Part shown: positions 15,552 to 56,023 of the stretch, piece by piece
Position numbering within the stretch: the stretch's first letter is position 1
Layout of the letters: the number at the start of each line of letters is the position of its first letter
Assembly: GCA_965243735.1 (NCBI GenBank)
Contig: CBDEVZ010000008.1
Location: 3,867,180 to 3,931,179, forward strand
Source: an uncultured Candidatus Binatia bacterium
Lineage (GTDB): Bacteria; Desulfobacterota; Binatia; Bin18
Direction of reading: 5' to 3'
DNA length: 64,000 nucleotides
Program-made: the position numbers and the translations under genes
The notes under the pieces: model-generated
Seen by the model: the letters and a program-made list of their open reading frames with translations, nothing else
The model's database searches: none
Told to the model about the DNA's origin: nothing

Positions 15552-15599
15552 GGTCAATGCTCAACATCCGACGGTTCTTGCCCGTTGTCGGCCTCGGGC

Positions 15600-15629: not shown

Positions 15630-15649
15630 TGTGGGTCTGCTTGGTCTGT

Positions 15650-15743: not shown

Positions 15744-16087
15744 CCGCGCTTGAGGTCTTCGTCTTCGGTGGCGGCCGCTGCCCGAGCCTCGGCCCTGGCT
15801 CTGGCCCGGTCGTACAGTTCCTCGCGCGTGAGGTTATCGGATATCCGCAGGCCTACGGCGCGAGCATCGAAATCCTCGAATACCTCGCGCAACATCCCCC
15901 GACAGCGTTCGGCTTCCGTCTCCACGTTCGTCTCGTTGGACGCCGTGCCGCCGGCGCGGTCCGCAACAAGACTCTTCAGGTAGTTCCGCACCAGATCCGA
16001 CACCGAGGTGTCCAACTCCGCCGCCCGAATACGGGCGAGGAGATAGGTTTCTTCGTCAACGGATACAGCGATGTTTTTTATGGCCAT
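15740..16087 (-). CDS. vapB: VapB-like ribbon-helix-helix antitoxin (paralogue 1)
   Basis: MAIKNIAVSVDEETYLLARIRAAELDTSVSDLVRNYLKSL. About 85% identical to the antitoxin at 21738-22079, whose partner is an intact PIN toxin. Confidence 0.6.
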   Translation of the reverse strand: MAIKNIAVSVDEETYLLARIRAAELDTSVSDLVRNYLKSLVADRAGGTASNETNVETEAERCRGMLREVFEDFDARAVGLRISDNLTREELYDRARARAEARAAAATEDEDLKRG

Positions 16088-16176
16088 AGCCTCACAATTT
16101 CTGAGAGACACAGCATAGGTTCCCATTGACCGACGGGCAACACCTCCAACGTCGTACGGGGGCAGCCAGATTCGGT

Positions 16177-16198
16177 AGGGGCGACCGGCCGGTCGCCC
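16177..16198. terminator. Perfect 22-bp palindrome GGGGCGACCGGCCGGTCGCCCC immediately 3' of the hsdS stop
   Basis: Strong GC hairpin abutting the hsdS stop (16199-16201). No U-tract, so it may be an attenuator or processing signal rather than an intrinsic terminator. Confidence 0.35.
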
Positions 16199-17605
16199 CT
16201 ACGCGACGTCAGTGTCGAGAGCGTCGTCCAGGGCGTCGTCGGCAGCCAGAGGATCGACCTCGGGCAGCGCGGCCGCCGCCTCGCGCACGTCGAGCTTGCC
16301 GGTAACGACATCAGCGATCAGGCGGGTGCGGTATTCGTGGAGGCGTGTGACTAGCCCGCGAGCACCGTCCATCGCCGCTGCAACGTTGCGCGTTGATCTC
16401 CTGAGGAAATCAACAATCATTCTCTGCTCGTCTTCAGGCGGGATGGCAACGGCAAGGACTTGCCAGCGTTCTGTGGGAAGGCGGCGAGTACCATGACCAG
16501 CCTCATCTATCAACGGCACGAAAGCGTCTTGCGCCGAATCCAATGCGCGCGCCAGAAATTCTGCCTCGATTCCCAAGACTGGCATCAGGGCCTTCATGTC
16601 TTGATTGATTGTCACGGGGCTCGTGATCCAGGCAATGGGAACCTTCCGAGCCAAGATCATCCCGCGGACGACCATCAGAACCGCTGGCGGATCGATCAGG
16701 CGTAGCGATGTTTCGTGAACAGCAGCCTCTGTGACCTTCATACCTGAGTCACAGATAGTCTCTCGCTTCATGTCTTTCGGCGTGACCCAGGGGATTGATC
16801 CATCCCAAAATCGCCGGTTTTCCATACTCGGCGTCATGCCGCCAACAACCATCCCGCATTGGCGCAGCTTCTTTACCTCCCAATGCGCCGGCACCTCGCC
16901 CAGCCACTCGACGCCGGAGGGCTTGTAGGCTGGGTAGGGCTGGCCGGTGCGCACGTTGATCTGGCCGGTGACGGCTTGGTGGATGATGGCCTGCTTCTGC
17001 TCCTCCAGCAGCGCAATCAGCTTCTGTTTGGCGCGGATGTAGCGCTGGATGCGCCAGTCGGCGTGGTCGAGGAAGCGGACGATGGCGGTTTGTTCGGACT
17101 CGGGCGGCCACCCCAGATAAATACTACCGACTATGTCGGTGTTCAGATTGAGTTGTGTTCCGAGCTTTCCCAATCTTGCGAACGGTGCTCTACACGAAAA
17201 CACACGGTATAAGAACTCGACATTGCCACGAAACTGAGGGAAGTAAACAAATCCATCATGAATGCAACATTGGATATTCGTGATGATCGGCTTTCCCACG
17301 GAACCAGCAATGCTGAGGAACAGCGCTCCTGGTTGTAATCGCACACTCAAAGATTGCCCTAGCCGAGAAAGGCGTTGTGTCGCCTTCTCAAGATAGTGAT
17401 TGCTCGCCGTTACATCGGCAATACGTACCCACGCATATTCGCCACTATCATCAAAATATCTTGTGTCACCAATTGGCCTTGGAGAGGCACCCCGCTTGAC
17501 TAAAGATAAGCTCTTCAGCCGCCGCACCTCCCAATGCGCCGGCACCTTCCCCAGCCACGGCACACCGGAATCTTTGTAAGCAGGATAAGGTTTGAGGCTC
17601 TCCAT
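16199..17605 (-). CDS. hsdS: Type I restriction-modification specificity subunit HsdS
   Basis: 468 aa with two target-recognition domains separated by conserved repeats (VPAHWEVRRLKSL ... VPAHWEVKKLRQ). Confidence 0.85.
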   Translation of the reverse strand: MESLKPYPAYKDSGVPWLGKVPAHWEVRRLKSLSLVKRGASPRPIGDTRYFDDSGEYAWVRIADVTASNHYLEKATQRLSRLGQSLSVRLQPGALFLSIAGSVGKPIITNIQCCIHDGFVYFPQFRGNVEFLYRVFSCRAPFARLGKLGTQLNLNTDIVGSIYLGWPPESEQTAIVRFLDHADWRIQRYIRAKQKLIALLEEQKQAIIHQAVTGQINVRTGQPYPAYKPSGVEWLGEVPAHWEVKKLRQCGMVVGGMTPSMENRRFWDGSIPWVTPKDMKRETICDSGMKVTEAAVHETSLRLIDPPAVLMVVRGMILARKVPIAWITSPVTINQDMKALMPVLGIEAEFLARALDSAQDAFVPLIDEAGHGTRRLPTERWQVLAVAIPPEDEQRMIVDFLRRSTRNVAAAMDGARGLVTRLHEYRTRLIADVVTGKLDVREAAAALPEVDPLAADDALDDALDTDVA

Positions 17606-17607
17606 CA

Positions 17608-17733
17608 GACTGCTTGGATGGGACCGGGATAGCGGACCACTTTGGTGTCGGTGGTCAGCAGGGTGATATTCTCAACCTGCGCTTGGGCGATGAGAATGCG
17701 GTCGAAGGGGTCATTGTGAATCGGCGGGAGCAG
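17608..17733 (-). pseudogene. PIN-domain (VapC, COG3744-type) C-terminal remnant
   Basis: Alternative frame encodes LLPPIHNDPFDRILIAQAQVENITLLTTDTKVVRYPGPIQAV, matching the LHRDPFDRLLIAQAqvEglpLvTaD C-terminus of VapC. No PIN N-terminus is present. Its TGA overlaps the hsdS ATG (TGATG). Confidence 0.55.
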
Positions 17734-18656
17734 GCCGACAGCACTCCCCCGAACATCTTCTCTATCTCGGGACCGCCCATGCTATCGAAGTCGTCGGGGA
17801 CCTGGATGTGTCCGGCCATGAAACCCAGGCGGGACGATGGTGTTCCATCGGGAAGTGCAAAGCCGAACTCACGCCGCAGACGGTCATACGCCTCCCGCGC
17901 CTCGGAACCGCGCCGGGCGGCCGCCTCGTGAAGCTGCTTCAAGTCCGCTCCGCCGTACAGGAGATCGACCGTATCGGCAATGAACTGCTCGATATGGGGA
18001 TCGCTGGCGTCCTGCTGGACAACCCAGCGCCAAAACCGCGCCATGCGTGTATCGTCAGGCTGGCTATAATCTTCCGGTTGTAGACCCGCGACCACCCAGG
18101 GCTTCCCCAAACGGAGGTCGGGATTGACCGAATCCTGGTACGACCACATGCGCAAGCCTGCCATGAGGGCCGCGCAAATGAACGCCCCATTGGACGTAGC
18201 TCGATCACTCCTGGCCGCCTCTCCGTTGTGTCCACGACAGCGGTCCATCTCGCGCAAGTATGACTCGACTTCGTGCTTGAGGGCGTAACTCGAACGTTTC
18301 GGCGGAGCCGGTCCATTGAAGCGACGCGCCCAGCCACACCCCTTCGGGCGATAGCTCAGCGACACCCGGCCCTCCACAAAATACTCCAACGTGTTGCGAA
18401 TACCCCGCTCATCCTGCCCGCCCGCCCGTAACGCATCCCGCGCTGCGTCCAAATCAGCGGGAATACACTCTATCTCCCAACGCTCCAAGTGCGTGCTCTC
18501 GGCAGAAAAAATACGGCGACGACGACGCACTTGTCCCAAGCCATGCGCATTGAGCAGAGGATAGGCTGCCAGAACCCGCTCGCGTTCCGCATCAAAAAAT
18601 CCTGGGTCCGAAAGCAACCGAGCGGCTCTCAACCACAACTGTTGGCTCTTCGTCAT
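17655..18656 (-). CDS. Hypothetical protein embedded between hsdM and hsdS (orfX)
   Basis: 333-aa ORF with no recognisable domain, and own promoter and RBS (AGGGA). The last ~40 codons overlap the PIN remnant in another frame and are probably read-through. Confidence 0.5.
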   Translation of the reverse strand: MTKSQQLWLRAARLLSDPGFFDAERERVLAAYPLLNAHGLGQVRRRRRIFSAESTHLERWEIECIPADLDAARDALRAGGQDERGIRNTLEYFVEGRVSLSYRPKGCGWARRFNGPAPPKRSSYALKHEVESYLREMDRCRGHNGEAARSDRATSNGAFICAALMAGLRMWSYQDSVNPDLRLGKPWVVAGLQPEDYSQPDDTRMARFWRWVVQQDASDPHIEQFIADTVDLLYGGADLKQLHEAAARRGSEAREAYDRLRREFGFALPDGTPSSRLGFMAGHIQVPDDFDSMGGPEIEKMFGGVLSACSRRFTMTPSTAFSSPKRRLRISPC

Positions 18657-18698
18657 TAAGAATCCCTGGTACTTGGATTAAACCCCTTACGATTCAAT

Positions 18699-18727
18699 CC
18701 AATATGAACTTTTGCTCATCTTGTCAA
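18699..18727 (-). promoter_or_regulatory. Putative sigma70 promoter for orfX (TTGACA-17-TATTGG)
   Basis: Minus-strand ttgacaagatgagcaaaagttcatattgg in an AT-rich patch about 45-70 nt upstream of the orfX ATG. Confidence 0.4.
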
Positions 18728-18790
18728 AAGTTCGCTATCCTCGCTCAGTCCTGCCGTCAGGCTAGAGCAATTCACCATGATGTGTAGCCG

Positions 18791-18866
18791 TGTAGGTCGG
18801 GTTAGCCGCAGGCGTAACCCGACGACATCCCGCACGTGTCGGATTACGCTTCGCTAATCCGACCTA
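18791..18866. repeat. Pair of REP-like palindromic units (BIME-like)
   Basis: gtaggtcgggttagccgcaggcgtaacccgac ... gtgtcggattacgcttcgctaatccgacctac, between hsdM and orfX. Confidence 0.5.
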
Positions 18867-18900
18867 CTACAGCCTATCGGGAAACGCTTTAGTGAGACGG

Positions 18901-20869
18901 CTATGCTCGGATGATCTCGTCGAGCAACCCCTCGGTCTCCTGCTCCAGCGCCAGAATATCGGCCCGGATCTCATCCAGGCTGCGCAGGGGCTGCGGCGTG
19001 TAGAAGTAGCGGGTGAAGCTGATCTCGTAGCCAATCTTTGCGCTGTCGGGCTGGACCAGGCGTCGGCGGCGTAGGGCAGGACCTCGCGCCGCAGGAAGGC
19101 TTCGATGCCGCCGACCTCTTGCAATGGAATCTGCTCGGTGTCGCGCAGGTCAGTGTCGGGCTCGTACTCGACCACCGTCGGCCGGCCGTTGATGCTGGTC
19201 GCGAACAAGCCGTGCAACGGGTCGGCCTCGGTGCCCCGCTTGTGAATCTTCCTGATGACGGGCGGCGCGTCCTCGCTGCGTTCGCCGTTCTCCTTGAGCT
19301 TCTTGAGTTCGGCAGATTTGTAGGCGCGGTCGGGGTCGGCGCCCCGGATACGTAGCGGCCGTTCGACTGTGACCTTCCAGTAGCCGAAGGCGGCGTTGTC
19401 GAAAATTTTGCTCTGCTCGGTCTCCTCGAAGTCGAGAAAGGTGTCGCAGATGCGGGCGATGTCGTCCTCCGCCAACTCGCAGTTCTTCTTGCCCAGGTTC
19501 TTGCGCAGCGGTTGGTGCCAGTTGGTGGCGTCGATGAGCTGCACCTTGCCCCGGCGCTGGGTGGGCTTGCGGTTGCTCAGCACCCACACATAGGTGGCGA
19601 TGCCGGTGTTGTAGAACATATTGAGCGGCAGGGCGACGATGGCTTCCAGCCAGTCGTTTTCGATAATCCAGCGGCGGATGTTGCTCTCGCCCTGGCCGGC
19701 GTCGCCGGTGAACAGCGAGCTGCCGTTGTGGACCTCGGCGATGCGGCTGCCGAGCGGGGTGTGTTGCTTCATCTTGGACAGCTTGTTGACCAGGAACAGC
19801 AGCTGGCCGTCGCTGGAGCGGGTGACCAGGGAATACTCTGGGTCGCCGTCATGCTCGATCACAAAGCGCGGGTCGCGCATGTCGGTCTTGCCGCCCATGC
19901 GCTCCAGGTCGGTCTTCCAGCTCTTGCCGTAGGGCGGGTTGGACAGCATGAAGTCGAACTCGCGGGCCGGGAAAGCGTCGTTGGCCAGGGTCGAGTGCTC
20001 CGGGCCGCCAACGATGTTGTCGGCGGCTTCGCCCTCGCCCTTGAGTAGCAGGTCGGCCGTGCAGATGGCGTAGGTCTCGGCGTTGATCTCCTGACCGTAG
20101 AGGTGGGTGGACACGTCCTTGGCGTGCGCGGCGGCGAGCTGGCGTAGGGTGTCCTCGGCCACGGTCAGCATGCCGCCGGTGCCGCAGGCGCCGTCGTACA
20201 GCAGATAGGTGCCCGACTTGATCGCGTCGGCGATGGGCAGGAAGACGAGCTTGGCCATCAGCCTCACCGCGTCGCGTGGGGTCCAGTGTTCGCCGGCCTC
20301 CTCGTTGTTCTCCTCGTTGAAACGGCGCACCAGCTCTTCAAAGATCGAACCCATGCCGTGGTTATCGAGACCGGGGTGCTTGACCGAGCCGTCGGCGTTC
20401 CTGACCGGGGCCGGGCTCAGGTTGATGTCGGGCGAGGTCAGCTTCTCGATCAGCGTGCCCAGGGCGTCGGCTCTGGACAGCCGCGGAATCTGGTTGCGGA
20501 ACTCGAAGTTGTCGAGGATGTCCTGCACGTTGGGCGAGAAGCCGTCGAGATATGCCTCGAAGTCGGCCGTCAGCTGCTGACGGTTGGCGCGGGCCTTGAG
20601 GTCGCGCAGGGTGAACTTCGAGGTGTTGTAAAAGGCTTGGCCTGCGGCCTGGCGCAGGCCAAGCCTTGCTCAACGACGCTTGCGGCGTCGAGCGTGGCCT
20701 TCATGTCGAGGACAGCCCGCTTACTGTCTTCCAGCACCGCATCGAGCCGGCGCAGGACGGTCATGGGCAGGATCACGTCGCGGTACTTGCCGCGCACGTA
20801 CAGGTCGCGCAGCACGTCGTCGGCAATGCCCCAGATGTAGTTGGCAATCCAGTTCAGGTCGGTGCTCAT
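18901..20869 (-). pseudogene. hsdM: Type I RM N6-adenine DNA methyltransferase HsdM, disrupted by two single-base frameshifts
   Basis: Three collinear frames carry an HsdM N-domain (MSTDLNWIANYIWGIADDVLRDLYVRGKYRDVILPMTVLRRLDAVLE, 20570-20869), the catalytic core with NPPYG (track ORF 18867-20528), and the canonical C-terminus (...KIGYEISFTRYFYTPQPLRSLDEIRADILALEQETEGLLDEIIRA, to stop at 18901). The shifts lie near 20650-20680 (missing C in a ggccctg run) and near 19055-19060 (missing G in a tggg run). Confidence 0.75.
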
Positions 20870-33712: not shown

Positions 33713-35158
33713 ATGACAGACCAATTTGTCGATCTCGACGCAACCGCCCAGGCTGAACTGATCCGCAACGGCGAGGTGCAGGCCCTCGAACTCGTCGAGG
33801 CGGCCATTACCCGGATTGAAAAACTCAACCCCCAGCTTAACGCGGTCATCCATCCCCTGTTCGAAAAGGCCTGCGCCCAGGCGAGGTCTGCCGAACTGCC
33901 CGACGGCCCGTTTCGGGGCGTCCCGTTTGTCATGAAAGACCTGCTCGGCGGTCCGGCCGGTGAGCCCCTGCACAACGGCATGCAGCTACTCAAAACGCTC
34001 GGCTATACCTCGCCCCAGGACACCTATCTGTCGGAAAAATTTCGGCAGGCCGGATTCATCAGCGTGGGCCGCACCAATACCCCCGAGTGGGGCCTGATGG
34101 GCACGACAGAGCCGGCCGCCTACGGTCCGACCCACAACCCGTGGAATCTGGCCCACTCGCCCGGCGGCTCGAGCGGGGGCAGTGCGGCTGCGGTCGCCGC
34201 CCGGCTGGTGGCCGTCGGCCACGGCGGAGACGGCGGGGGTTCACTGCGCATCCCGGCCAGCATGTGCGGCATTGTCGGCCTCAAGCCGAGCCGTGGCCGG
34301 CTGTCTCTGGGACCGGCCATGGGCGAGTGCTGGCACGGCCTGGCCACCGAAGGGGTAATGACCCGTTCCGTCCGCGATATGGCCGGCGTGCTCGACGCCG
34401 CGGCCGGCACCATGCCGGGCGACCCGTATGCTGCGCCGTCTCCAGCGCGGCCCTACCAAGAGGAAGTCACCCGCCAGCCCGGTCGCCTGCGGGTCGGCCT
34501 GATGCTGCAAACGCCGGCCAACAGAACGCCCCTGCACGGCGAGTGCAAGACGGCGGTCGAGCAGACCGGCCGGCTGCTCGAATCGCTCGGCCACAGCGTT
34601 GAGGTCGCGCATCCGGCCGCCTACGACGAGCCCGAATGGCTGGCCCACTTCGGGCGGGTGGTCCAGGCTCATAGCAGCTTCACCGCCCATGACCTCGGCA
34701 CGGCCCTCGGGCGGGCCTTGGAGCCGGACGATGTGGAGCCGTATACCTGGGGACTGATTGAGGAAGGCCGCAAGGTTTCGGCCGAGCACTACCTGGCCTC
34801 GGCCAACTGGCTCCAGATCTGGACACGGCGGATGGCGAGCTGGTGGACCGAGGGTTTTGACCTGCTGGTCACCTCGACGCTCGGTGAGCCGCCGCCGGTA
34901 CTGGGCGATATGGGCGGCCCGAGCGAGGACGTTGTGGCCAAGTGGCAGCGCAATATCGAGGTAATTCCGTTCACCCCGGCGTGTAATGCCACCGGACAGC
35001 CGGCCCTGTCACTGCCCCTGGCCTGGAGTGCCGACGGGCTGCCGATCGGCGTCCATTTCGTGCCGGCCTACGGACACGAAGACCTGCTGCTGCGGCTTGC
35101 GGCCCAGCTCGAAGCGGCCCAGCCGTGGGCGACCCAGCGTCCCCCGGTGTGCGCCTGA
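33713..35158 (+). CDS. Amidase (amidase-signature family)
   Basis: GGSSGGSAAAVAA signature, Ser-cisSer-Lys triad context. 481 aa. Confidence 0.85.
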   Translation: MTDQFVDLDATAQAELIRNGEVQALELVEAAITRIEKLNPQLNAVIHPLFEKACAQARSAELPDGPFRGVPFVMKDLLGGPAGEPLHNGMQLLKTLGYTSPQDTYLSEKFRQAGFISVGRTNTPEWGLMGTTEPAAYGPTHNPWNLAHSPGGSSGGSAAAVAARLVAVGHGGDGGGSLRIPASMCGIVGLKPSRGRLSLGPAMGECWHGLATEGVMTRSVRDMAGVLDAAAGTMPGDPYAAPSPARPYQEEVTRQPGRLRVGLMLQTPANRTPLHGECKTAVEQTGRLLESLGHSVEVAHPAAYDEPEWLAHFGRVVQAHSSFTAHDLGTALGRALEPDDVEPYTWGLIEEGRKVSAEHYLASANWLQIWTRRMASWWTEGFDLLVTSTLGEPPPVLGDMGGPSEDVVAKWQRNIEVIPFTPACNATGQPALSLPLAWSADGLPIGVHFVPAYGHEDLLLRLAAQLEAAQPWATQRPPVCA

Positions 35159-35319
35159 GAGACACAGCCCATCGGCCGGAAACCTAGGCCACCAAGCTCC
35201 GGGCTGAAGATGCTTCGGCCCGGCGCCTGTTTTGCCTAAAATTCTTCAGCCGCGCCTGGCCGGCCTTGACCCGTAAGCCCTTAATTTTCCTACACTCGCT
35301 CCCGGCCACCGATCCCGCC

Positions 35320-35358
35320 GCGTCCGATACCGGCCACAGTGTTAAGTTTGGGCGGGCA
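35320..35358. repeat. Direct repeat A (gcgtccgata-N-agtgttaag-ttggg...gggcgggc), downstream boundary of the arsM module
   Basis: About 85% identical to the copy at 36773-36818 (which has a 7-nt insertion), same orientation. Confidence 0.45.
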
Positions 35359-35493
35359 GCCACACCCGTCGGCAGGGGAGGCTCACCCAACAACAGGGCC
35401 AGGCCATAAGACACTCTTTCACGAGGCCCTTACTGCTGCTGAGCGAACTCCGGGCGCAGAATCTCTGTCTCGGGGCAAGAGGGGGATCTCTGC

Positions 35494-36312
35494 TCAGCCC
35501 ACAGAGGGTTTCCGCGCGCGGACGAAGGCACTGCCGAACTTGCCGTCCACCTCAGCGGCCACGGCCTCCACATCAATCCCTGTGTCGGAAAGATAGGCCC
35601 GCGCATCCTCGATACGGTAAATCCGCGTGGGCTCCAGAGCGATATCAACAAAGCCCGCCCGAGCGAGTTTGGTCCGGTAGTCGTGCTCTTCCAACGCGCC
35701 GGCGATACACCCGATCCACAGTTCAAGGTTACGTTGAATCGGCTCCGGGATCGCTCCACGCACGACAATGTCCGACACCGCAAACCGGCCGTCTGGGCGC
35801 AGCACGCGAAAAGCTTCCGAGAGGACGCGATCTTTGTCTGCTGCCAGATTAATCACGCAGTTGGAGATAATGACGTCAACCGCGTTGTCAGGCAGCGGAA
35901 TGGCTTCCATCTCGCCTTTCAGAAACTCGACATTGTCGAGCCCCGCCTTGCGTTGGTTGTCGCGCGCTAAGGCCAGCATTTCGTCGGTCATATCGAGACC
36001 ATAGACTTTTCCTGTGGGACCGACTCGGCGGGCCGACAGGAGCACATCTATCCCGCCGCCCGAGCCGAGATCGAGCACGGTCTCGCCTGGGTTGAGCTGG
36101 GCCAGGGCTGTGGGGTTGCCACAGCCGAGCGAGGCGGCAAGCGCCTCCAGCGGAAGCCCCGCGATCTGCTCCTCGGCGTAGAGGTGGGAGGTAATCGGAT
36201 CATCGGCACTCGCGGTTGCCGCCCCGCAGCACGCCCGGTCCCCCTGGGCGGCTTGGAGCGCCGCCTTGCCGTACACTGCCTTGACTTGCTGTTTCACATC
36301 CTGGCTTTGCAT
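35494..36312 (-). CDS. arsM: Arsenite S-adenosylmethionine methyltransferase ArsM
   Basis: N-terminal CCG cysteine pair, [12 protein letters not shown] motif, SNCVINL and C-terminal Cys (IGCIAGAL) typical of ArsM/AS3MT. AAGGAGG RBS. Confidence 0.8.
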
Positions 36313-36431
36313 GCTGACCTCCTTCTGTCGCGTGCTGGCTTCTGCCCGAACTCGAAGGCCGTGTCGACGGAGTGCCCGGGCAGACTCCGCCGCAGGGGAA
36401 CCGGCGTGCCCTGGTCGAACAGGACTTTCAT
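36296..36431 (-). pseudogene. DUF5615 (Mut7-C/PIN-like toxin) N-terminal remnant, truncated by arsM
   Basis: MKVLFDQGTPVPLRRSLPGHSVDTAFEFGQ matches the DUF5615 N-terminus, then runs into the arsM RBS and start. Its ATG overlaps the DUF433 stop (ATGA). Confidence 0.55.
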
Positions 36432-36648
36432 GCCGGGCTGGACGCCGTTAGCGACCGGGCCGCATGCTCCAGGACGGAGGCGGCTTGCCAGCTCGCCACG
36501 CCAGGGAACCATGCGAGGAATTGGTCCAGCGTCGCCCCGTCTTTGAGATTCTCGAACAACGCGGCGCCCGGGTGCCGCGAAAGACCCAGGCCCCGCCACA
36601 CTTGCCCGGGTCGCGCTCAACGGCCGGACACGTTTCCCAGTCGGTCAT
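36428..36648 (-). pseudogene. DUF433 antitoxin-like protein with a 1-nt frameshift
   Basis: MTDWETCPAVERDPGKCGGAWVFRGTR in one frame, then ALFENLKDGATLDQFLAWFPGVASWQAASVLEHAARSLTASSPA in the -1 frame. Together they form a full-length DUF433. Shift near 36560-36570. Confidence 0.6.
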
Positions 36649-36772
36649 AGACTCACCTCCTCCTCTGCATAGCGGAGGAGCCCGCCTGATCGCAAGTTCC
36701 TCCGCAGCGGCGGGACCGTGGCGCGGGAAGACTCGGATTTTCCTGCATCCGGGCGCGGACGCTCAGGCGGCT

Positions 36773-36818
36773 GCGTCCGATAACGCCTCAAGTGTTAAGC
36801 TTGGGAGAGAGGGCGGGC
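36773..36818. repeat. Direct repeat B, upstream boundary of the DUF433/arsM module
   Basis: gcgtccgataacgcctcaagtgttaagcttgggagagagggcgggc. See repeat A. Confidence 0.45.
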
Positions 36819-36954
36819 TCATCTCCAAAGGCGCATAACAATGTTTATCCTACATGCTCAAACGGCTGTCCGGATCGGCGACCAGAGTCAGCTTGCTGAT
36901 GTTGGGAACACAGTCATTCAGGATCGCGTCTCGCCAGTGACTCATTAGCCACAC

Positions 36955-37848
36955 TCAATTCGTCCCATTCATCCTTGTGTCGATCAATTGCTTCAAGGTA
37001 ACAAAGTCGGCGGGCTGGACACTCGTGTCTTTTTGCAGAAGATCCTTCACGATCTCATTGATTTTTTCGCGGCCTTGTAGAACAGTCCCGTCCATTGCTT
37101 GCACGGAAAAGCAACCGGAATTAATGACCTGGGCAAAGACTTTCTTACCTTGAACCATGCACAGCCATTCGCCCGTGCCAAAGGCGAGAGTGCTCTGACC
37201 ACCTGTCATAAGTTCTACACATTCATGGAACCTGTGTTCCACTTCATCTGCTGAAACCGTTTGGTCAACAGTTGACCGATACTGACCGAATTGGTTCGCG
37301 TTTATCAGCCTTTGAAGGGCTTTTCCTTTTGTGGAAAAGTCCGCAGGATTCGAGAACTTTTCTATCCAGTTCCTCTTCAATTCCTCTCGTATCGATATCA
37401 CGACGTGGTTTGCGGCATCAAGAAATAGTCGCTCGTTGGCGCATTTCAGGACTTTTTCTTCAAGATCGCCCTGGCTGGCCTGACAAAACTGTGAGTGGAG
37501 GAGATAGGCTGGCTCTAAAAAATAGTTTTCGATTTCACGCCGTCTCCAAACAAGGAGGTTGCGCGTCGCGGGATTAGGGAAATTATTCCAGCACCGGTCT
37601 ACGAAGTCATCCTTGTGGTGATCGCGGTCGATCAAGAAATAATATGTCGGGTGGTAGCTGCTTAAGGCCTCTGCAACACTTTCTACGTAGAACGATGGGC
37701 CGAGAGTCTCAATCTGGATCCTATTATCGAACAATTCGTTGAGCGCTTTGGAATCAACCGATTCCTCATCTTTCCCTTCCACAAAGAGCACATGTTGGCC
37801 TTGAAATCGGACTTCTTCGGCACGGATTCCTCTTTTTACGCTGACCAT
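36955..37848 (-). CDS. DUF4435 (OLD-type TOPRIM-like) protein, AriB/AbiLi-like
   Basis: VLFVEGKDEESVD matches the xLxVEGxxD TOPRIM motif of DUF4435. 297 aa. Overlaps and follows the ATPase gene. Region visibly AT-richer than flanks. Confidence 0.6.
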   Translation of the reverse strand: MVSVKRGIRAEEVRFQGQHVLFVEGKDEESVDSKALNELFDNRIQIETLGPSFYVESVAEALSSYHPTYYFLIDRDHHKDDFVDRCWNNFPNPATRNLLVWRRREIENYFLEPAYLLHSQFCQASQGDLEEKVLKCANERLFLDAANHVVISIREELKRNWIEKFSNPADFSTKGKALQRLINANQFGQYRSTVDQTVSADEVEHRFHECVELMTGGQSTLAFGTGEWLCMVQGKKVFAQVINSGCFSVQAMDGTVLQGREKINEIVKDLLQKDTSVQPADFVTLKQLIDTRMNGTN

Positions 37849-37863
37849 TTATCTATCGTCCTC

Positions 37864-38937
37864 CTAATTGTTCAGGAGGAGAACACGCCGGTCTTCATTG
37901 ACCGAATCCATAATATCTTCGGAATGGGTCGCCATGATGTATTGGTTCTGAGGAGCCAAATCCACAAGCTGCTTCATGAAACTACGATGCCATTGAGCAT
38001 TGAGATGCAACTCCGGCTCATCGATAAACACCACAGAGGGATTGTCCTTCGTGTGATCCCAAATCAGGAAAAGCGTGGAGATAATTTCCTTTTGGCCGGA
38101 ACTCAGGCCGTCGAAGGCGAAGGAATCTTTTCCAGTTCTAGGTTTGACGCGGACTTCAACGGTGTTGTCGGGAGACGGCCGAAGCTTGTGGATCTCGCCT
38201 CCCGCATAAAACTTCATAAGATCGTTGAGCTTCTCAAGGGTCTCATCTGGATCCTCTTTCTCGACAAATTCAAACAAGTTGGCCCTACGCATTAAGGAGC
38301 GCAAAATCCTCAGTTTGAATATGCTCATAGGGAACTCATACCCCCTCCGCCGCCATCTCGGCGAGTGATCTCGTTCCACCATCATGCCTAGCTCTGGATT
38401 TCCTTCCTGAACTTTCCGGTAGCTATGGAACAGGAGAAAAGTGTTTTCGACGACCGGGTCCAGCGTAAAGCCACAAATTGCCTTGATGAGATGATCGGGA
38501 TCTCGCTCAGAGTCAAAGCGCTCATTCTCGCGTATCTTCTCGAGTAGCGACCCACCTGCTATTTTGACTAGGCCGTGACGATCTATTCGGATTCGTACCG
38601 GTCCTGACTCGTCGCCGAGAACAATGTCACCTTTAATTTCAGCATAGTGGGAACCCGCCTTGATAAGCAGGTCGGGCACATCCAATTCCGATCGGCCACC
38701 ATACAACTTGAAAAGCTCCTTGAAGCGCTTCACCCCCAAAGAGAGCGCTAGGAGTAGCAACGAACAACACTCGATAACCGATGTCTTTCCAAGGCCATTC
38801 TCGCTGCCCATGACGAGGATATCTGGATCATTAGGCATTCGTGGCGACGGGAAGTCCAACGCAAGCGCGTCGAGGCCTTTGTAATTGCGTATGGCTAGGT
38901 GCCTGATTTTAATTGGCAGGTTTGGGCCTCTCTGCAT
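37864..38937 (-). CDS. AAA_15/AAA_21 ABC-type ATPase, AriA/AbiLii-like
   Basis: GSENGLGKTSVIEC Walker A, ...VVFIDEPELHLN Walker B/D-loop, ATHSEDIM H-loop. 357 aa. Confidence 0.65.
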   Translation of the reverse strand: MQRGPNLPIKIRHLAIRNYKGLDALALDFPSPRMPNDPDILVMGSENGLGKTSVIECCSLLLLALSLGVKRFKELFKLYGGRSELDVPDLLIKAGSHYAEIKGDIVLGDESGPVRIRIDRHGLVKIAGGSLLEKIRENERFDSERDPDHLIKAICGFTLDPVVENTFLLFHSYRKVQEGNPELGMMVERDHSPRWRRRGYEFPMSIFKLRILRSLMRRANLFEFVEKEDPDETLEKLNDLMKFYAGGEIHKLRPSPDNTVEVRVKPRTGKDSFAFDGLSSGQKEIISTLFLIWDHTKDNPSVVFIDEPELHLNAQWHRSFMKQLVDLAPQNQYIMATHSEDIMDSVNEDRRVLLLNN

Positions 38938-39113
38938 GACAGCCTCCCTGTATTATCACCGCTCTTAGTATAGTTACCTGTGCCCACGAAAGGGGACACA
39001 CTGCGCCTTCCTTACGACACTCGGGCCACATCGCAACATCGCATCTGATAAGGACCGTTGTGTCAAGCTCAGGCGCTGGTTCGACCCACGTCACAGCCCA
39101 GCAGCCATTCGCT

Positions 39114-39392
39114 TCACTGCCGCGTGCGGAACGATTGGGCGGGCTCCTGGCGCCGAATCCACTCGCGCAGTGCTTCGTTGATCCGCGTCTGCCAGCCGCG
39201 GCCACCGGCCTTGAAGTGGGCCAGCACGTCGGGCGACAGCCGGATAGTCGTGGACACTTTCGGGCTGGCGACCGGCGGCCGCCCACGGCGGACCGGTGCC
39301 TTGGCAAACTTCTCTGGCCACTCGCCCGCCGATAAGTCCGGGGCCGTGTCTGGGTCAAAATCGCGAGGTGTAGAGCGCTCGTTCCCGTTCAT
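39114..39392 (-). CDS. BrnA-like antitoxin (orphan)
   Basis: TTIRLSPDVLAHFKAGGRGWQTRINEALREWI matches the BrnA RHH-like core. Only ~140 bp of AT-rich non-coding DNA lies upstream, so no brnT is present. Confidence 0.5.
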   Translation of the reverse strand: MNGNERSTPRDFDPDTAPDLSAGEWPEKFAKAPVRRGRPPVASPKVSTTIRLSPDVLAHFKAGGRGWQTRINEALREWIRRQEPAQSFRTRQ

Positions 39393-39533
39393 TATCGAAC
39401 TCGATCCTCAGTATTTTTGTTACTACATTAAAGATAGCTCTAACGATGAAGTCAAGCGAGTATCGAGGTATCGATCTGCTACTCATGGGAGCTGAAGATT
39501 CTTCGGTCCGCGTTTCGAAGGGGTGTCCGGAGT

Positions 39534-41276
39534 CTAGCGGAGAATGATCGGCAGCACGATGTGTGAGGGTCGCAGCTCGTCGTGAAATACGCGCTGCAGG
39601 GCCGGCTCCAATCGGCCGGCTTCGGCAGCGCTCTGCCCCGTCTGGGGATTCCGATCAAAACGAGGAAAATTCGAGCTGGCGATCTCAAGCCGGATACGGT
39701 GGCCGGCTTTGAACACATTGCTCGTCGCCCACAGGTCGAGGGTGTATTCGTACACCTCGCCCGGGGTGAGCGGTTTCGCCCGGGTTTTCGACTCCCGGTA
39801 GCGACCACGAATAATGCCGTCGCTGAGGTTGCGCGCGTAGCCGTCCGGCGCCACGTCTACCAGCTTGGCCGTAAAGTCGGTATCGACCGCGCTGGTCGCC
39901 GCATACAGCGTCACGCCGAGCGGCCCGGTTACCTCAAGGTCGCGCTCCAGAACGGGGCTGGTATAGACCAGCACGTCCGCCCGTTCTTCAATCGGTCGCT
40001 GATCGAAGGCTCCGCCCGGCATCGCGGCTGGCCAGCCGGTCACGGCTCCGCCCCTGGTCGGGACCGGGTCGCGCGGGTCTGAGACATACACGTCGGCCGG
40101 CTCGCCGCCGGGCGCATCAAGGCTGAGCAGCCCGTCTCCACCCAGACTGTTCGCCTGTCCCTCGCTGTGCAGGTAGTGCTTGGTGTACCGGGTCCGGGCC
40201 AGCGGCCACTCGTTCTCGGTCCGCCAGGTGTTCGCTCCCATGGTGAAGAGACGGACCGGCGGCTCGTCGAGCAGGCCGTTGGGTTTGCCCTTCAGCCAGT
40301 AATCAAACCATTTGATATGCAGGCCGTCCAAATCCGCGACAAGACTGTGGCTGGCAAAGCCGAAGTCAACATCGCCCACAACGTTGCCGAGCGGCAGGGT
40401 GTGGTACCAGGGGCCGATGACCAGCTTTTGCCCCTGCCGCGCCTGGGGCGTGCCGCCGCGCTCGCGCATGCCCACATAGTTGCGGAGCGTTCCGCCCAGG
40501 AAAATGTCATGCCAGCCGCCGACGTTGCAGGCCGGCACTCTGACGGAGCCGTGCTGGGCTTCAATGCTCCAGCGCGCCCAGTAGTCATCATCGTCGGGAT
40601 GGGCCAGCCAGTCGTAAAAATACGGGGCGGCTTCGGCCAGGAGCGGAAAGTCCGCGAGCGGCAGGTGTTGAAACAGCTGGGGCAGCCGGTCGATGGACCC
40701 GATGAGAGCACCCAGTTTTTCACCCCCATCAGGCTGGGCCCGGCTCAGACGCGCAGCCGTATCGGGCGCCAGACGGGCCAGGGTCCAGCTGGCGTTAAAG
40801 CCCAGGGCAAACGCTCCGCCCTGATACGTCCAGCCCTCATGGTAGTCCGAGGCTGTAATCAGCGGAAAGATGGCTTTGAGGTGCGGCGGCGCGCTCAGCG
40901 CCGCCAGCCACTGGGTCGCCCCGACATACGACGCGCCGTACATGCCGACCTGGCCGTCCGACCAGGCCTGGGCCGCGCACCACTCAACGCTGTCATAACC
41001 GTCCGTGATATCGTCCCGGAAGGCATAAAACTCGCCCCCGGACGCATACCGACCCCGGGTGTCCTGAATCACCACCGCATAGCCTTCACTCGCCGTGCGG
41101 ACAACGTCAAGCATCAGGATCACGCCGGCCAGTAGAGCCTTGTTATACGGTGTCCGCTGGAGGATGACCGGATATTTTCCAGCTGTGGTCGGGCGGTAGA
41201 CATCGGCCCGTAAGACCGTGCCGTCGCGCATGGGTACGGGAACATCCTTGTCAATAATGAGACTCGCGTATGACAT
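39534..41276 (-). CDS. CocE/NonD family hydrolase (X-Pro dipeptidyl-peptidase S15 alpha/beta hydrolase)
   Basis: 580 aa from MSYASLIID (GAGGGGAA RBS); GASYVG nucleophile region, C-terminal jelly-roll domain. The track ORF's 75-codon N-terminal extension is rejected. Confidence 0.75.
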   Translation of the reverse strand: MSYASLIIDKDVPVPMRDGTVLRADVYRPTTAGKYPVILQRTPYNKALLAGVILMLDVVRTASEGYAVVIQDTRGRYASGGEFYAFRDDITDGYDSVEWCAAQAWSDGQVGMYGASYVGATQWLAALSAPPHLKAIFPLITASDYHEGWTYQGGAFALGFNASWTLARLAPDTAARLSRAQPDGGEKLGALIGSIDRLPQLFQHLPLADFPLLAEAAPYFYDWLAHPDDDDYWARWSIEAQHGSVRVPACNVGGWHDIFLGGTLRNYVGMRERGGTPQARQGQKLVIGPWYHTLPLGNVVGDVDFGFASHSLVADLDGLHIKWFDYWLKGKPNGLLDEPPVRLFTMGANTWRTENEWPLARTRYTKHYLHSEGQANSLGGDGLLSLDAPGGEPADVYVSDPRDPVPTRGGAVTGWPAAMPGGAFDQRPIEERADVLVYTSPVLERDLEVTGPLGVTLYAATSAVDTDFTAKLVDVAPDGYARNLSDGIIRGRYRESKTRAKPLTPGEVYEYTLDLWATSNVFKAGHRIRLEIASSNFPRFDRNPQTGQSAAEAGRLEPALQRVFHDELRPSHIVLPIILR

Positions 41277-41337
41277 ATTTCCCCTCTTCTCCTGACTAAA
41301 AAACGTGCGGCGCCAGGCGGCGGTCGGAGACGCAGCC

Positions 41338-42495
41338 TCACACCGCCCGAATCTTGGGTAAGACCTCGCTGGCGAACAGGCGCAGACTCTGGGTTGCCAG
41401 CGCGTCCGGCAGGGAGCCGAACTGGAACATGGCCAGCAGGGTGCCCCGTTTGCCAACCTCACGCTGGCGCTTGATCTGGGCGATGACGCTGTCCGGGCCA
41501 CCCAAAATCACCGTCCCGTTCTCGATCCCCTCGTCCACGCTATAGCCCATGGCCTTGCCCGTCTCCTGGCTGGTCACATTCTTCAGCCAGTCGCGCATGC
41601 CAGCGACGCTCATATGCCCCGGGACCAGGGAGACGGTCCCAATGTCAAAGGAGGCCAGGGCCCGAAAAAAATGGTACTCCAGGTGCGTCTCCGCCTCCAG
41701 CCGCGCCTTTGCATCGTTCTCCCCAACATAGATTGCGCAGATGGCGGCGAACATATCGTCGAAGTCCTCGGCCACGGGAATGTCCTGTTCCCCGGCCAGC
41801 CGACGGTAGGTCTCGGAGATGTAACGGGTCCGGTCCAGGCTGACCCAGGGGGTGGCGATATACGTCCGGTTCTGGACGGCGAAGTCCAGGCTGTCCAGGC
41901 TGTTGGCCGCCATCCATATTTTTGGATACGGCTTCTGGAGCGGCCGGGGCCAGATATTATAGTTCCGCACCCGATAATACTCGCCGTCGAAGTTAAACGG
42001 TCCCTCGGTTGACAGCGCTTTTATCACCAGGGCAAACCCCTCTCGAAAGCGTGCCTGGGACTCGGCCGGGTTGACCCCATAGGACAGATACTCGGTCGGA
42101 AAGCCCCGCAGGGCGCCCCAGATGAACCGCCCGCCGCTGAGATGGTCGAGCATCGCCACCTCCTCGGCGACCATGAGCGGATGGTGGAGAGGGATGCACG
42201 AGCCGGTCACCGCCACCTTCAGGCGCTTGGTGCGCTGCGAGACTGCGCCGGCCATGACGTGGGTCGAGGGAACGAGGGCGCAGAATCCACCCCCGCCGTG
42301 GTGCTCCTGACAGGTGAAGCCGTCAAGACCGAGTTCGTCGCTGAGCGCAATGCGGTCGAGTTCTTGCTGGAGCAGGGCGTTGCCCCGCTGTGGATCGAAA
42401 TACGTATTCGACAGCGGATACGAGCCGGGCACACCGACCGGGGCATCCTCCGGCAGGTCAGGCCAGCCAAACAACACCATATTGAAGATTTTCAT
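41338..42495 (-). CDS. LLM-class flavin-dependent oxidoreductase
   Basis: 385 aa from MKIFNMVLFGW. Luciferase-like TIM barrel. Start overlaps the upstream hydrolase stop by 4 nt. Confidence 0.75.
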   Translation of the reverse strand: MKIFNMVLFGWPDLPEDAPVGVPGSYPLSNTYFDPQRGNALLQQELDRIALSDELGLDGFTCQEHHGGGGFCALVPSTHVMAGAVSQRTKRLKVAVTGSCIPLHHPLMVAEEVAMLDHLSGGRFIWGALRGFPTEYLSYGVNPAESQARFREGFALVIKALSTEGPFNFDGEYYRVRNYNIWPRPLQKPYPKIWMAANSLDSLDFAVQNRTYIATPWVSLDRTRYISETYRRLAGEQDIPVAEDFDDMFAAICAIYVGENDAKARLEAETHLEYHFFRALASFDIGTVSLVPGHMSVAGMRDWLKNVTSQETGKAMGYSVDEGIENGTVILGGPDSVIAQIKRQREVGKRGTLLAMFQFGSLPDALATQSLRLFASEVLPKIRAV

Positions 42496-50507: not shown

Positions 50508-51434
50508 ATGAAGGATACGGTAAAATCAATTGTAGCGAGTGTAGCTGGCCACTTGGCTCTTGATCCACACTGTGGCCAGGCAGTCCCGTTCAATATTGTC
50601 GAGCCGTTCGGTCCGAGACAGAACCACCGACACTGTCCAGCCAACCCACCCAAGGCCAGATTCGCGCGAATCCTCACGGCCGACCGGCTGGCTATGATAG
50701 GGTTAGCTGCCAAGACGTGGCTGGCTGGAAATCCGCCCGAGATGGCAGACGTGAGCGCAGTCGTGGACGCCGCAATATCACGCCTCGTTCCCGATGGACC
50801 GGACGGGCTACCCGACCCCTCCCACAGCGACGTACAGGCGTACTTCTGGCTGGGCAACAAGAAGACAAAAGTCCAAGACAAGGTGGGTCAACTCAATTCG
50901 CGCCAGCAGCGGGAACTGACCACGCAACTGACCCAGCTCCTAGACACCGTCCGGGCTGAATGCGTTCCGCAACTAGAGACTCTCCCGCCAACGGCGGCCG
51001 ATGAAGAGTCTTTCGACCCGAACAATGAGGAAGACACGCGACAGCGGACTGAGCGAACGACCACACAACGCGACGGGCAAACAGAGTTTCGAGAGTCTGT
51101 AATTGCCGCATATGCAGGGAAGTGTGCGATTACAGCCTGCTCCATTCGTGCTGTCCTTGAGGCAGCGCATATCATTCCGTATCGCGGTGCTCATACAGAT
51201 AAGATATCTAACGGCCTCCTCCTCCGTGTCGATCTGCATAGATTGTTCGATCGCAAGTTACTGGCAATCGACCCAGAGACGATGGAAGTTCTTCTTGCTC
51301 CTCATCTGGAGGATAGCGAGTACAGAAATTGGTGTGGACGCCGTATTCGGCTACCGAAAAATACAAAGGACCAGCCAAACACAGAAGCTCTAAGAATGCA
51401 CCTTGAGGCTTGTAGGAACGCCTGGGGAGAATAG
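50508..51434 (+). CDS. HNH endonuclease domain protein (HNH_2-like C-terminus) with unknown N-terminal domain
   Basis: C-terminal GKCAITACSIRAVLEAAHIIPYRGAHTDKISNGLLLRVDLHRLFD matches the C-x2-C...H-I-x-P...N-G-L...H-x-x-FD HNH pattern. AAGGGAG RBS. Confidence 0.6.
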   Translation: MKDTVKSIVASVAGHLALDPHCGQAVPFNIVEPFGPRQNHRHCPANPPKARFARILTADRLAMIGLAAKTWLAGNPPEMADVSAVVDAAISRLVPDGPDGLPDPSHSDVQAYFWLGNKKTKVQDKVGQLNSRQQRELTTQLTQLLDTVRAECVPQLETLPPTAADEESFDPNNEEDTRQRTERTTTQRDGQTEFRESVIAAYAGKCAITACSIRAVLEAAHIIPYRGAHTDKISNGLLLRVDLHRLFDRKLLAIDPETMEVLLAPHLEDSEYRNWCGRRIRLPKNTKDQPNTEALRMHLEACRNAWGE

Positions 51435-55881: not shown

Positions 55882-56023
55882 GGCAGCTCATCGTCGAAGA
55901 CCACGCAGAACACCCCCACCGGAATGTTGCAGCGCCTGATGGAAGAATGGTAGGGCGTTGTCAGGATGGCACGGGGTCTACGGTATTTCCGAGGCAGCAA
56001 ACAAAACAGCGGAGAACAAGACC

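What the first reader, a model, noticed from the sequence alone, without database searches (positions are those of the whole stretch)
35300..36830. arsM cassette flanked by ~45-bp direct repeats has overwritten a DUF433-DUF5615 toxin-antitoxin pair
On the minus strand a DUF433 gene (frameshifted) is followed by a DUF5615 toxin start (MKVLFDQGTPVPLRRSLPGHSVDTAFEFGQ) with ATGA coupling. After ~32 codons the toxin gene runs straight into the RBS and ATG of an intact arsenite methyltransferase. Near-identical direct repeats (gcgtccgata..agtgttaag.ttggg..gggcgggc; 35320-35358 and 36773-36818) bracket the whole [DUF433-DeltaDUF5615-arsM] block. This looks like a cassette-type insertion or site-specific recombination footprint that removed a toxin and delivered an arsenic-resistance gene. 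It lies beside the PARIS-like island.
Basis: seen in the sequence. Interest (0 to 1): 0.6.

Follow-up and report, generated by a model that had tools for sequence, protein, structure and literature searches.

The report
arsM replaced toxin in variable island
A roaming 1-kb arsenic-methylation gene unit replaced most of the toxin gene of a resident toxin-antitoxin pair in a strain-variable defence island, and the flanking "direct repeats" are the island's own spacer repeats, not scars of that insertion.

Summary
DUF433 is frameshifted by a 7-nt deletion. The first 29 codons of a DUF5615-like toxin follow it, ATGA-coupled, and run into the leader of an intact arsenite methyltransferase gene. A repeat brackets the block, but it is 69 nt at 71% identity, not "near-identical".

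Relatives about 95% identical change the interpretation. The toxin-antitoxin pair is resident: two relatives carry it intact at the same PepS15/amidase site. The arsM unit (window 36349-35338) moves on its own and sits in at least five contexts.

- **5' junction:** it lies inside the toxin ORF, at about 5 nt of microhomology.
- **3' junction:** it lies inside the right-hand repeat, at a 12-nt box (AAACTTAACACT).

A syntenic relative joins arsM to DUF433 at a different point. The repeats belong to an island-specific unit "U" of about 70-100 nt. U follows each gene module: three copies here and more in relatives that lack arsM. U is not REP-like, not attC-like and not dif-like, and no recombinase gene was detected in the window.

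The best reading is short-homology or illegitimate replacement in a hypervariable toxin-antitoxin/defence island, followed by antitoxin decay. The function of U is unresolved, so an unrecognised cassette-array system stays a minority possibility.

The parts
33713..35158 (+). Amidase gene, the conserved right flank of the island. In relative L007 a 123-nt copy of its 3' end is duplicated on the far side of the toxin-antitoxin pair.
   Evidence: Pfam Amidase 1.2e-92. 94-96% DNA identity to L002, L007 and L010. L007 duplicate of window 35040-35162.
35199..35223 (+). Terminator-like hairpin downstream of the amidase gene. A look-alike of 18/21 nt lies at 39489-39509, just after the PepS15 stop.
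   Evidence: Terminator scan. 21-nt pattern found twice in the window.
35271..35360 (-). It is chimeric: 35338-35349 and leftward are shared with the arsM unit of L020, and 35349 rightward is shared with the resident terminal repeat of L010 and L011.
35338..36349 (-). Mobile arsM unit of 1,012 nt: 37-nt leader with RBS, arsM CDS, and about 155 nt of 3' flank. It is 92% identical and collinear with L020, where it lies beside tRNA-Arg.
   Evidence: BLAST window 36349->35338 against L020 1060->2071. Alignments A5 and A6. tRNA.
35494..36312 (-). Intact arsenite S-adenosylmethionine methyltransferase (ArsM), 272 aa.
   Evidence: NF008823 at 367 bits, above the cutoff of 263. Pfam Methyltransf_31 1.4e-36. 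Homologues named arsenite methyltransferase.
36345..36431 (-). Remnant of the DUF5615/PIN_10-like toxin gene: codons 1-29 of 105, with its ATG in an ATGA overlap with the DUF433 stop.
   Evidence: tblastn with the L007 toxin. Alignment A6. Homology to L007, L010 and L011 ends at 36345.
36428..36648 (-). DUF433 antitoxin pseudogene, with a 7-nt deletion near 36563.
   Evidence: Alignment A7. Pfam DUF433 9e-14 on the repaired product.
36649..36704 (-). Native 5' leader of the toxin-antitoxin operon (palindromic GCGGAGGA...TCCTCCGC, then RBS). It is conserved wherever this pair occurs, including unrelated contexts.
36724..36810 (-). L011 has the full unit at the same place. L007 and L010 have only the TTAACAC-N8-TTATCGGACGCAG box.
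36955..38937 (-). PARIS-like two-gene defence module (AriA-like ATPase 37864-38937, AriB-like 36955-37848). Its low G+C is 48-51%. It lies between U0 and U1.
   Evidence: PADLOC. Pfam AAA_15/AAA_21. Composition.
38992..39084 (-). Repeat unit U0, a third copy of the same unit, between BrnA and the PARIS-like genes.
   Evidence: Pattern match with 2 mismatches against 0.13 expected. MSA A4. nhmmer.
39114..39392 (-). BrnA-type antitoxin gene with no recognisable BrnT partner.
   Evidence: Pfam BrnA_antitoxin 9.4e-22. Sequence upstream. No Pfam hit for the 43-aa upstream ORF.
39534..41501 (-). Peptidase S15 gene, the conserved left flank of the island.
   Evidence: Pfam. Synteny in L002 and L010.

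Best explanation
The 4.3 kb between the convergent peptidase-S15 and amidase genes is a strain-variable toxin-antitoxin/defence island of an uncultured Binatia lineage. Its resident core is a DUF433 (antitoxin)-DUF5615/PIN_10-like (toxin) operon.

A roughly 1.0-kb arsM unit (leader, arsM, about 155 nt of 3' flank) moves among at least five chromosomal contexts in this clade. Here it replaced toxin codons 30-105 and everything downstream, as far as the TTAACACT box of the island's terminal repeat.

The two junctions show about 5 nt and 12 nt of shared sequence. This points to illegitimate or short-homology recombination, possibly anchored on one side by homology. It does not point to site-specific cassette insertion. 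That mechanism is inferred, not shown.

Once the toxin was gone, the antitoxin was free to decay, and it carries a 7-nt deletion. arsM keeps its own RBS and sits where the toxin-antitoxin promoter could drive it; this too is inferred.

The direct repeats are two of three copies of an island-specific inter-module unit, U. U predates arsM at this locus. Its function is unresolved: promoter/regulatory element, or substrate for module shuffling.
For: - **Resident pair:** it is intact at the same site in L007 and L010, with flanks 94-96% identical.
- **Variable island:** content differs in every relative.
  - L007: toxin-antitoxin pair only.
  - L010: DUF2806, a 207-aa gene, the pair, and an FRG/TPR protein matching PADLOC candidate PDC-S15.
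  - L002: VapB-like gene, DUF433, arsM, truncated PIN and Phd.
  - Window: BrnA, PARIS-like genes, DUF433 pseudogene, toxin remnant and arsM.
- **arsM contexts (80-93% identical):** aminotransferase/TonB (L001, L021), amine oxidase (L003), ArsR (L004), next to tRNA-Arg (L020), and this island.
- **Unit limits:** window 36349-35338 is collinear with L020 at 92% identity. Toxin homology ends at 36345. Resident-repeat homology to L010 and L011 starts at 35349.
- **Different junction in L002:** it joins DUF433's last codon to about -85 of the leader, against toxin codon 29 to -34 here.
- **U copies without arsM:** L011 has five b-box/U elements and L010 four. Two of these lay outside the training set: L011 709-763 at E=3.9e-7 and L010 7966-8049 at E=1.3e-6.
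- **Antitoxin decay:** a 7-nt deletion in DUF433.
Against: - The right junction falls exactly at the conserved box of a repeat, and arsM in L020 is also followed by a degenerate copy of that box. This would equally fit a site-directed process acting on U.
- It cannot be decided whether the window and L002 share one ancestral arsM arrival followed by two different deletions, or had independent arrivals.
- Only nine usable relatives were obtained, all metagenomic.
- No expression data exist, so the promoter statements are inference.
- The DUF5615 assignment of the toxin is below Pfam's cutoff.
Confidence: 0.7

Rival explanations
1. [DUF433-truncated toxin-arsM] is a single cassette inserted by site-specific recombination, and the two repeats are its attL and attR footprints.
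For: Direct repeats in the same orientation bracket the block. The sequence between arsM and the amidase gene differs from that in L002.
Against: - Copy B and the toxin-antitoxin operon are resident in relatives that have no arsM at this locus.
- Copy A is chimeric.
- The arsM 5' junction lies inside the toxin ORF and differs in L002.
- The copies are only 71% identical, and their longest identical blocks are 9-10 nt.
- No integrase was detected.
Confidence: 0.05
2. U repeats are the recombination sites of an unrecognised cassette-array system. Each module carries a U at its 3' end, as integron cassettes carry attC. arsM entered as such a module by recombination at the TTRACAC box. The junction inside the toxin arose later by deletion.
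For: - A U or b-box follows every module in the window, L010 and L011, including the last one, which has no gene downstream.
- Modules differ between strains while U persists.
- The arsM/island boundary falls exactly at the box, and arsM in L020 carries the left part of U.
- At b2, L010 and L011 have conserved arms but an entirely different 8-nt spacer, and different cargo downstream.
- Window and L002 have different 5' junctions, as expected from later deletions.
- In U0, U2 and L011 U3 the box can pair with a sequence around GGAAAAT. 73% of cells pair against at most 51% when slid, with one compensatory change.
Against: - There is no dyad symmetry, no attC R' box and no stable or conserved hairpin. 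Fold z-scores were +0.27, -2.70, +1.21 and +0.30, and alifold gave -6.9 and -3.5 kcal/mol with a positive covariation term.
- The pairing does not beat the shuffle controls (83 of 500 shuffles reach it).
- No recombinase was found in the window or in the 10-kb flanks of relatives.
- No U lies upstream of arsM in L020.
- The same toxin-antitoxin pair in L018 and L019 has no U.
Confidence: 0.17
3. U is purely a shared promoter or regulatory element. Its bipartite asymmetric box TTRACAC-N8-TTATCGGACGCAG has AAC-N18-CGC spacing, reminiscent of ECF-sigma promoters. It plays no role in recombination, and its position at junctions only reflects that modules are transcription units.
For: It always has the same orientation as the downstream genes and lies 38-126 nt upstream of start codons. 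The box is asymmetric with a variable spacer.
Against: - It is not a sigma-70 match.
- The terminal copies (window U2, L011 U3) have no gene downstream.
- The toxin-antitoxin operon functions elsewhere without it.
- The ECF resemblance rests on my own knowledge and was not tested.
Confidence: 0.3

Closest known systems
Displacement of toxin/effector genes that leaves orphan immunity or antitoxin genes (for example Vibrio cholerae T6SS effector-immunity arrays and Rhs/CDI orphan arrays; proposed homology-facilitated illegitimate recombination, PMC5361080)
   Same: Incoming DNA replaces the toxic gene but spares its protective partner. One junction lies in shared sequence and the other at microhomology. 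The result is an array of orphan protective genes. Here these are DUF433 and BrnA in the window, and a VapB-like gene, DUF433 and Phd in L002.
   Different: The incoming gene is a metabolic resistance gene (arsM), not a new toxin-immunity pair. The shared sequence at the junction seen here is only 12 nt. The mechanism is inferred.
Integron gene-cassette arrays, including sedentary chromosomal integrons and CALINs
   Same: Arrays of 1-2-gene modules (toxin-antitoxin, defence, resistance) in one orientation. Modules are separated by roughly 70-100-nt repeats with conserved ends and a variable middle, and content varies by strain.
   Different: U lacks the R'' / R' inverted core pair. Half the boxes read GAC rather than AAC, and there is no GTTRRRY. 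U has no conserved hairpin, and its most conserved block lies where attC is variable. No IntI or attI was found.
DUF433-PIN_10 (Mut7-C clan; COG2442/COG4634) type II toxin-antitoxin systems, for example VapB45/Rv2018 (PMC5499597, PMC2701414, PMC3834315)
   Same: The antitoxin has a DUF433 domain. The toxin is a DUF5615-like protein of about 105 aa. The genes overlap by 4 nt.
   Different: In the window the toxin keeps only 29 codons and the antitoxin is frameshifted, so the system is dead.
Genomic islands integrated at the 3' end of a gene, with duplication of that end
   Same: In L007 the toxin-antitoxin pair is bracketed by a 123-nt direct duplication of the amidase 3' end. L002 keeps 22 nt of it.
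   Different: No integrase remains. The window has lost the duplicate.

Membership tests
Integron cassette / attC | R'' (RYYYAAC) at the 5' end paired with R' (GTTRRRY) at the 3' end of each site | tested here: not met
   GCTTAAC fits R'' in U1 and U2. U0, b2 and b3 read GCTTGAC or GTTGAC. No GTTRRRY lies 50-130 nt downstream in any copy.
Integron cassette / attC | Single-strand hairpin conserved across sites | tested here: not met
   Fold z-scores of the two copies on both strands were +0.27, -2.70, +1.21 and +0.30, with different folds. RNAalifold gave -6.9 and -3.5 kcal/mol with a positive covariation term. A hand-drawn R/L-type pairing reaches 73% paired but does not beat shuffles.
Integron cassette / attC | IntI integrase and attI adjacent to the array | tested here: not met
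   No integrase or recombinase domain in the 40 window ORFs scanned, nor in the precomputed Pfam annotation of relatives' flanks. ORFs under 200 aa were not all scanned.
Xer/dif-like (pdif-type) module | An 11-6-11 site with inverted inner arms (..ATAA / TTAT..) | tested here: not met
   Read on the + strand, the box is GCGTCCGATAA-N6-nnGTGTYAAGC. The left arm resembles a XerC arm. The right arm lacks the inner TTAT, and there is no dyad symmetry (comparison with the dif consensus is from my own knowledge).
REP/BIME-type dispersed intergenic repeat | Many copies scattered through the genome | tested here: not met
   Only the three island copies occur in 64 kb. The 19-base pattern has one match in the 4.12-Mb genome of the relative, and about 4 chance hits are expected in the whole collection. 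Viral hits are at chance level.
attL/attR of a site-specifically integrated element | Identical core sequence in both flanking repeats; repeats created by the insertion | tested here: not met
   71% identity, with longest identical blocks of 10 and 9 nt and a spacer that differs. Both repeats exist in relatives without arsM.
Type II toxin-antitoxin, DUF433-DUF5615 (PIN_10) | Antitoxin with a DUF433 domain | tested here: met
   PF04255 at 9e-14 on the frame-repaired product. Intact 75-aa orthologues in L002, L007, L010 and L011.
Type II toxin-antitoxin, DUF433-DUF5615 (PIN_10) | Toxin belongs to DUF5615 | tested here: inconclusive
   The full-length orthologue scores 20.9 bits against PF18480, E=3.4e-4, covering profile positions 1-89. 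This is below the 23.8-bit cutoff. Several homologues at 59-69% identity carry precomputed PF18480 hits, and some are named 'predicted nuclease of predicted toxin-antitoxin system'.
Type II toxin-antitoxin, DUF433-DUF5615 (PIN_10) | Both genes intact and translationally coupled | tested here: not met
   The ATGA coupling is present, but the toxin is cut after codon 29 and the antitoxin has a 7-nt deletion.
ArsM arsenite methyltransferase | Full-length match above the curated cutoff | tested here: met
   NF008823 at 367.3 bits against a cutoff of 263, covering residues 2-270. Cysteines occur at CCG (28-29), GCGNP (64), SNCVIN (151) and GCIAG (202); reading these as the catalytic set rests on my own knowledge.
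PARIS (AriA/AriB) | ABC-type ATPase plus a DUF4435/TOPRIM partner | tested here: met
   PADLOC gives AriAB 4.7e-21 and AriA 1.6e-17 for the ATPase. It gives AriAB 3e-09 and AriB 6.8e-05 for the partner. Pfam DUF4435 (0.02) and OLD-like TOPRIM (0.011) are only weak.
Homology-facilitated illegitimate recombination | One junction in a homologous anchor, the other at 3-10 nt of microhomology | tested here: inconclusive
   The left junction has about 5 nt of overlap (36345-36349). The right has 12 nt (35338-35349) within a repeat. The true donor and the length of its anchor are unknown.

The most novel reading that the evidence does not exclude
The U repeats are the sites of a previously undescribed cassette-array system in Binatia. 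In this model 1-2-gene modules (PARIS, PDC-S15, toxin-antitoxin pairs, arsM) each carry a roughly 70-100-nt U element at their 3' end. A recombinase encoded elsewhere shuffles them at the TTRACAC-N8-TTATCGGACGCAG box. This would be functionally analogous to integrons, but with a non-attC, unstructured, asymmetric site.
Probability: 0.15. Interest if true: 0.75.

Novelty: new member of a known kind. Interest (0 to 1): 0.4.

Why it matters
This is a clean, base-resolved example of how a toxin-antitoxin module dies. The toxin is displaced by useful cargo, and the freed antitoxin then decays. Relatives with intact, half-dead and differently rearranged versions of the same locus serve as controls.

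It also shows that arsM moves as a small unit without any recognisable mobile-element machinery. That is relevant to how arsenic methylation spreads in soil bacteria.

Finally, the island-specific U repeats that separate defence and toxin-antitoxin modules are unexplained. If they prove to be recombination sites, they would define a new kind of cassette array.

Tried and rejected
- **Known RNA or tRNA:** Rfam at gathering thresholds and ARAGORN found nothing in the window.
- **Exact-protein look-ups:** the window's ArsM and amidase are not on record.
- **Metagenome scan with the amidase:** it returned only two 77%-identical loci with no island.
- **REP-like dispersal:** rejected.
- **Viral origin of the box:** six hits, at about the number expected by chance and with unrelated flanks.
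- **attC-like or other conserved structure:** rejected.
- **dif-like site:** the left arm resembles one, but there is no dyad symmetry, so it was rejected.
- **Sigma-70 promoter in U:** no match. My own spacing checks of TTGACA against TATCGG (10 nt) and of GAAAAT as a -10 element also failed.
- **PIN remnant in the 96 nt downstream of the arsM flank:** no significant similarity. That segment instead belongs to the arsM unit.
- **Second copy of the amidase 3' end in the window:** absent, though L007 and L002 have one.
- **Integrase or transposase in the window:** none among 40 ORFs scanned.
- **Literature:** no paper holds both DUF433 and DUF5615.
Full report
**1. The observation**

All genes discussed here lie on the minus strand unless stated.

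- **DUF433.** The ORF is split into two frames. Aligned with four relatives, it carries a 7-nt deletion (221 against 228 nt). The repaired product matches Pfam DUF433 at 9e-14.
- **Toxin remnant.** The DUF433 stop overlaps an ATG (ATGA). That ATG opens 29 codons that match the N-terminus of a 105-aa protein encoded full-length in relatives. The full-length protein matches DUF5615 only marginally (20.9 bits, cutoff 23.8). Some of its many homologues carry that domain or are named "predicted nuclease of predicted toxin-antitoxin system". DUF433-PIN_10 pairs are a described toxin-antitoxin family (PMC5499597, PMC2701414).
- **arsM.** After codon 29 the sequence turns into the leader, RBS and ATG of an intact arsM. 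It scores 367 bits against NF008823, cutoff 263.
- **The repeat.** It is only 71% identical. Its conserved blocks occur twice in the window, with none expected by chance.
- **Neighbours.** The neighbouring genes are PARIS-like.

**2. What relatives show**

The lineage is an uncultured Binatia bacterium (record title). Relatives with flanking genes 94-96% identical have very different content between the convergent peptidase-S15 and amidase genes.

| Locus | Content between PepS15 and amidase |
|---|---|
| L007 | Only the intact DUF433-DUF5615 pair, bracketed by a 123-nt duplication of the amidase 3' end |
| L010 | DUF2806, a 207-aa gene, the intact pair, and an FRG/TPR protein matching PADLOC candidate PDC-S15 |
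| L002 | VapB-like gene plus about 12 codons of a PIN start, 22 nt of the amidase duplicate, intact DUF433, arsM, a PIN gene cut at about codon 47, and Phd |
| Window | BrnA, PARIS-like genes, DUF433 pseudogene, toxin remnant, arsM |
| L011 | The same array in a different chromosomal context |
| L018, L019 | The same pair (92-93% toxin identity) in unrelated contexts, sharing only its roughly 55-nt leader |

The toxin-antitoxin pair is therefore the resident core of a hypervariable island.

**3. arsM is a separate, roaming unit**

arsM genes 80-93% identical sit in several contexts:

- next to an aminotransferase and a TonB receptor (L001, which is the same genome as L007, and L021);
- next to an amine oxidase (L003);
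- next to ArsR (L004);
- beside tRNA-Arg (L020);
- in this island (window and L002).

All share the leader and about 45 nt after the stop. L020 shares far more. Window 36349-35338 (1,012 nt) is collinear with it at 92% identity.

**4. The two junctions**

- **Left junction.** Toxin homology to L007, L010 and L011 ends at 36345, and L020 homology begins at 36349. The sequence reads GAGTT|CGGGCAGAAGCC. This is an illegitimate join at a few bases of microhomology, inside the ORF.
- **Right junction.** L020 homology ends at 35338, exactly after CTTAACACT. Homology to the terminal repeat of L010 and L011 begins at 35349. The overlap is 12 nt.

Its left edge came with arsM, and the remainder is resident.

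L002 joins arsM differently. There the last DUF433 codon meets about -85 of the leader, and the 3' flank meets a truncated PIN gene at +48. Either one ancestral arrival was followed by independent deletions that removed toxins, or arsM arrived twice. I cannot tell which.

**5. What the repeats are**

Read in gene orientation, the unit "U" is:

(GCCCGCCC...)-TTRACAC-N8-TTATCGGACGCAG-about 27 nt-GGAAAAT-...

- **Copies in the window.** There are three: U0 after BrnA and before the PARIS-like genes, U1 (copy B) before the toxin-antitoxin operon, and U2 (copy A) at the island's end.
- **Copies in relatives.** L011 has five b-box/U elements and L010 four. Two of these were not used to build the profile yet are found by it: L011 709-763 at E=3.9e-7 and L010 7966-8049 at E=1.3e-6.
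- **Position.** A U or its box follows every module, including the last, which has no gene downstream.
- **Specificity.** U is specific to this island. There are no other copies in 64 kb, and only one pattern match in the relative's 4.12-Mb genome. Hits elsewhere are at chance level.
- **What it is not.** It has no attC core pair, no conserved fold and no dyad symmetry. It is not a sigma-70 promoter match.
- **Recombinases.** None was detected among 40 ORFs of the window or in the annotated flanks of relatives.

**6. Most likely history**

- **Shown:** a resident toxin-antitoxin pair in a variable island, a 1.0-kb arsM unit with defined limits, two short-overlap junctions, and decay of the antitoxin.
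- **Inferred:** the replacement occurred by illegitimate or short-homology recombination. The U box, or longer homology in an unknown donor, may have served as an anchor. This resembles the displacement of T6SS effectors that leaves orphan immunity genes (PMC5361080). Loss of the toxin then removed selection on DUF433. arsM is probably read from the toxin-antitoxin promoter and uses its own RBS.
- **Pattern across the island:** orphan or widowed antitoxins recur. These are BrnA and DUF433 here, and a VapB-like gene, DUF433 and Phd in L002. This suggests that toxin loss is the common fate in this island.

**7. Verdict**

arsM did overwrite a toxin, and the repeats do mark module boundaries. But the repeats are not the footprint of the arsM insertion, and the bracketed block is not one cassette.

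As an instance of island turnover this is ordinary. The unexplained U repeats are the part worth following up.

Noticed in passing
window 10820-20528: A Type I restriction-modification system (HsdR 10820-13819, HsdS 16199-17605, HsdM 18867-20528) has a DarT-DarG (Macro) toxin-antitoxin pair (13816-15557) and an unassigned 333-aa ORF (17655-18656) embedded between its subunit genes. G+C there is lower, at 55-60%.
   Followed up: partly
window 55958-58584: A low-G+C (47-53%) pair: an AAA_15/AAA_21/DUF3696 ATPase (55958-57631) and an overlapping 332-aa ORF with no family (57586-58584). This is probably another two-gene defence system. An HNH_2 protein lies at 50508-51434.
   Followed up: partly
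window 39489-39509 and 35201-35221: A 21-nt sequence, GGnCCGAAGnATCTTCAGCnC (18/21 identical), occurs just after the PepS15 stop and again in the terminator-like hairpin downstream of the amidase gene. It therefore brackets the whole 4.3-kb island. I could not tell whether it is an old att remnant or two similar terminators.
   Followed up: partly
L007 91-213 versus 1166-1290; L002 9606-9627: In relative L007 the toxin-antitoxin pair is flanked by a 123-nt direct duplication of the amidase 3' end, and L002 keeps 22 nt of it. This is the signature of an old integration into the 3' end of the amidase gene. The window has lost it.
   Followed up: partly
window 39393-39533: The BrnA antitoxin gene has only 140 nt upstream and no recognisable BrnT toxin. 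In L002 a VapB-like gene is followed by only about 12 codons resembling a PIN start (VILVDTG...). Widowed antitoxins seem to be the rule in this island.
   Followed up: partly
L010 6365-6389 versus L011 2308-2332: At the box downstream of the toxin, the two relatives share both conserved arms and the left flank. Their 8-nt spacer is completely different (AAAGGTCC against TTCACCCC), and so is the cargo downstream.
   Followed up: no
L011 2230-2262: The toxin gene of L011 has a 1-nt deletion near its 3' end. This gives a 161-aa product instead of 105 aa and is another sign of toxin decay.
   Followed up: no
L001 9895-9990; L002 9926-10003: The conserved arsM leader of about 60-85 nt is an open frame in some copies. 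In L001 it forms a 31-aa ORF. In L002 it runs in frame from the ATG of the ATGA overlap into arsM. I did not test whether it encodes anything or is a regulatory leader.
   Followed up: no
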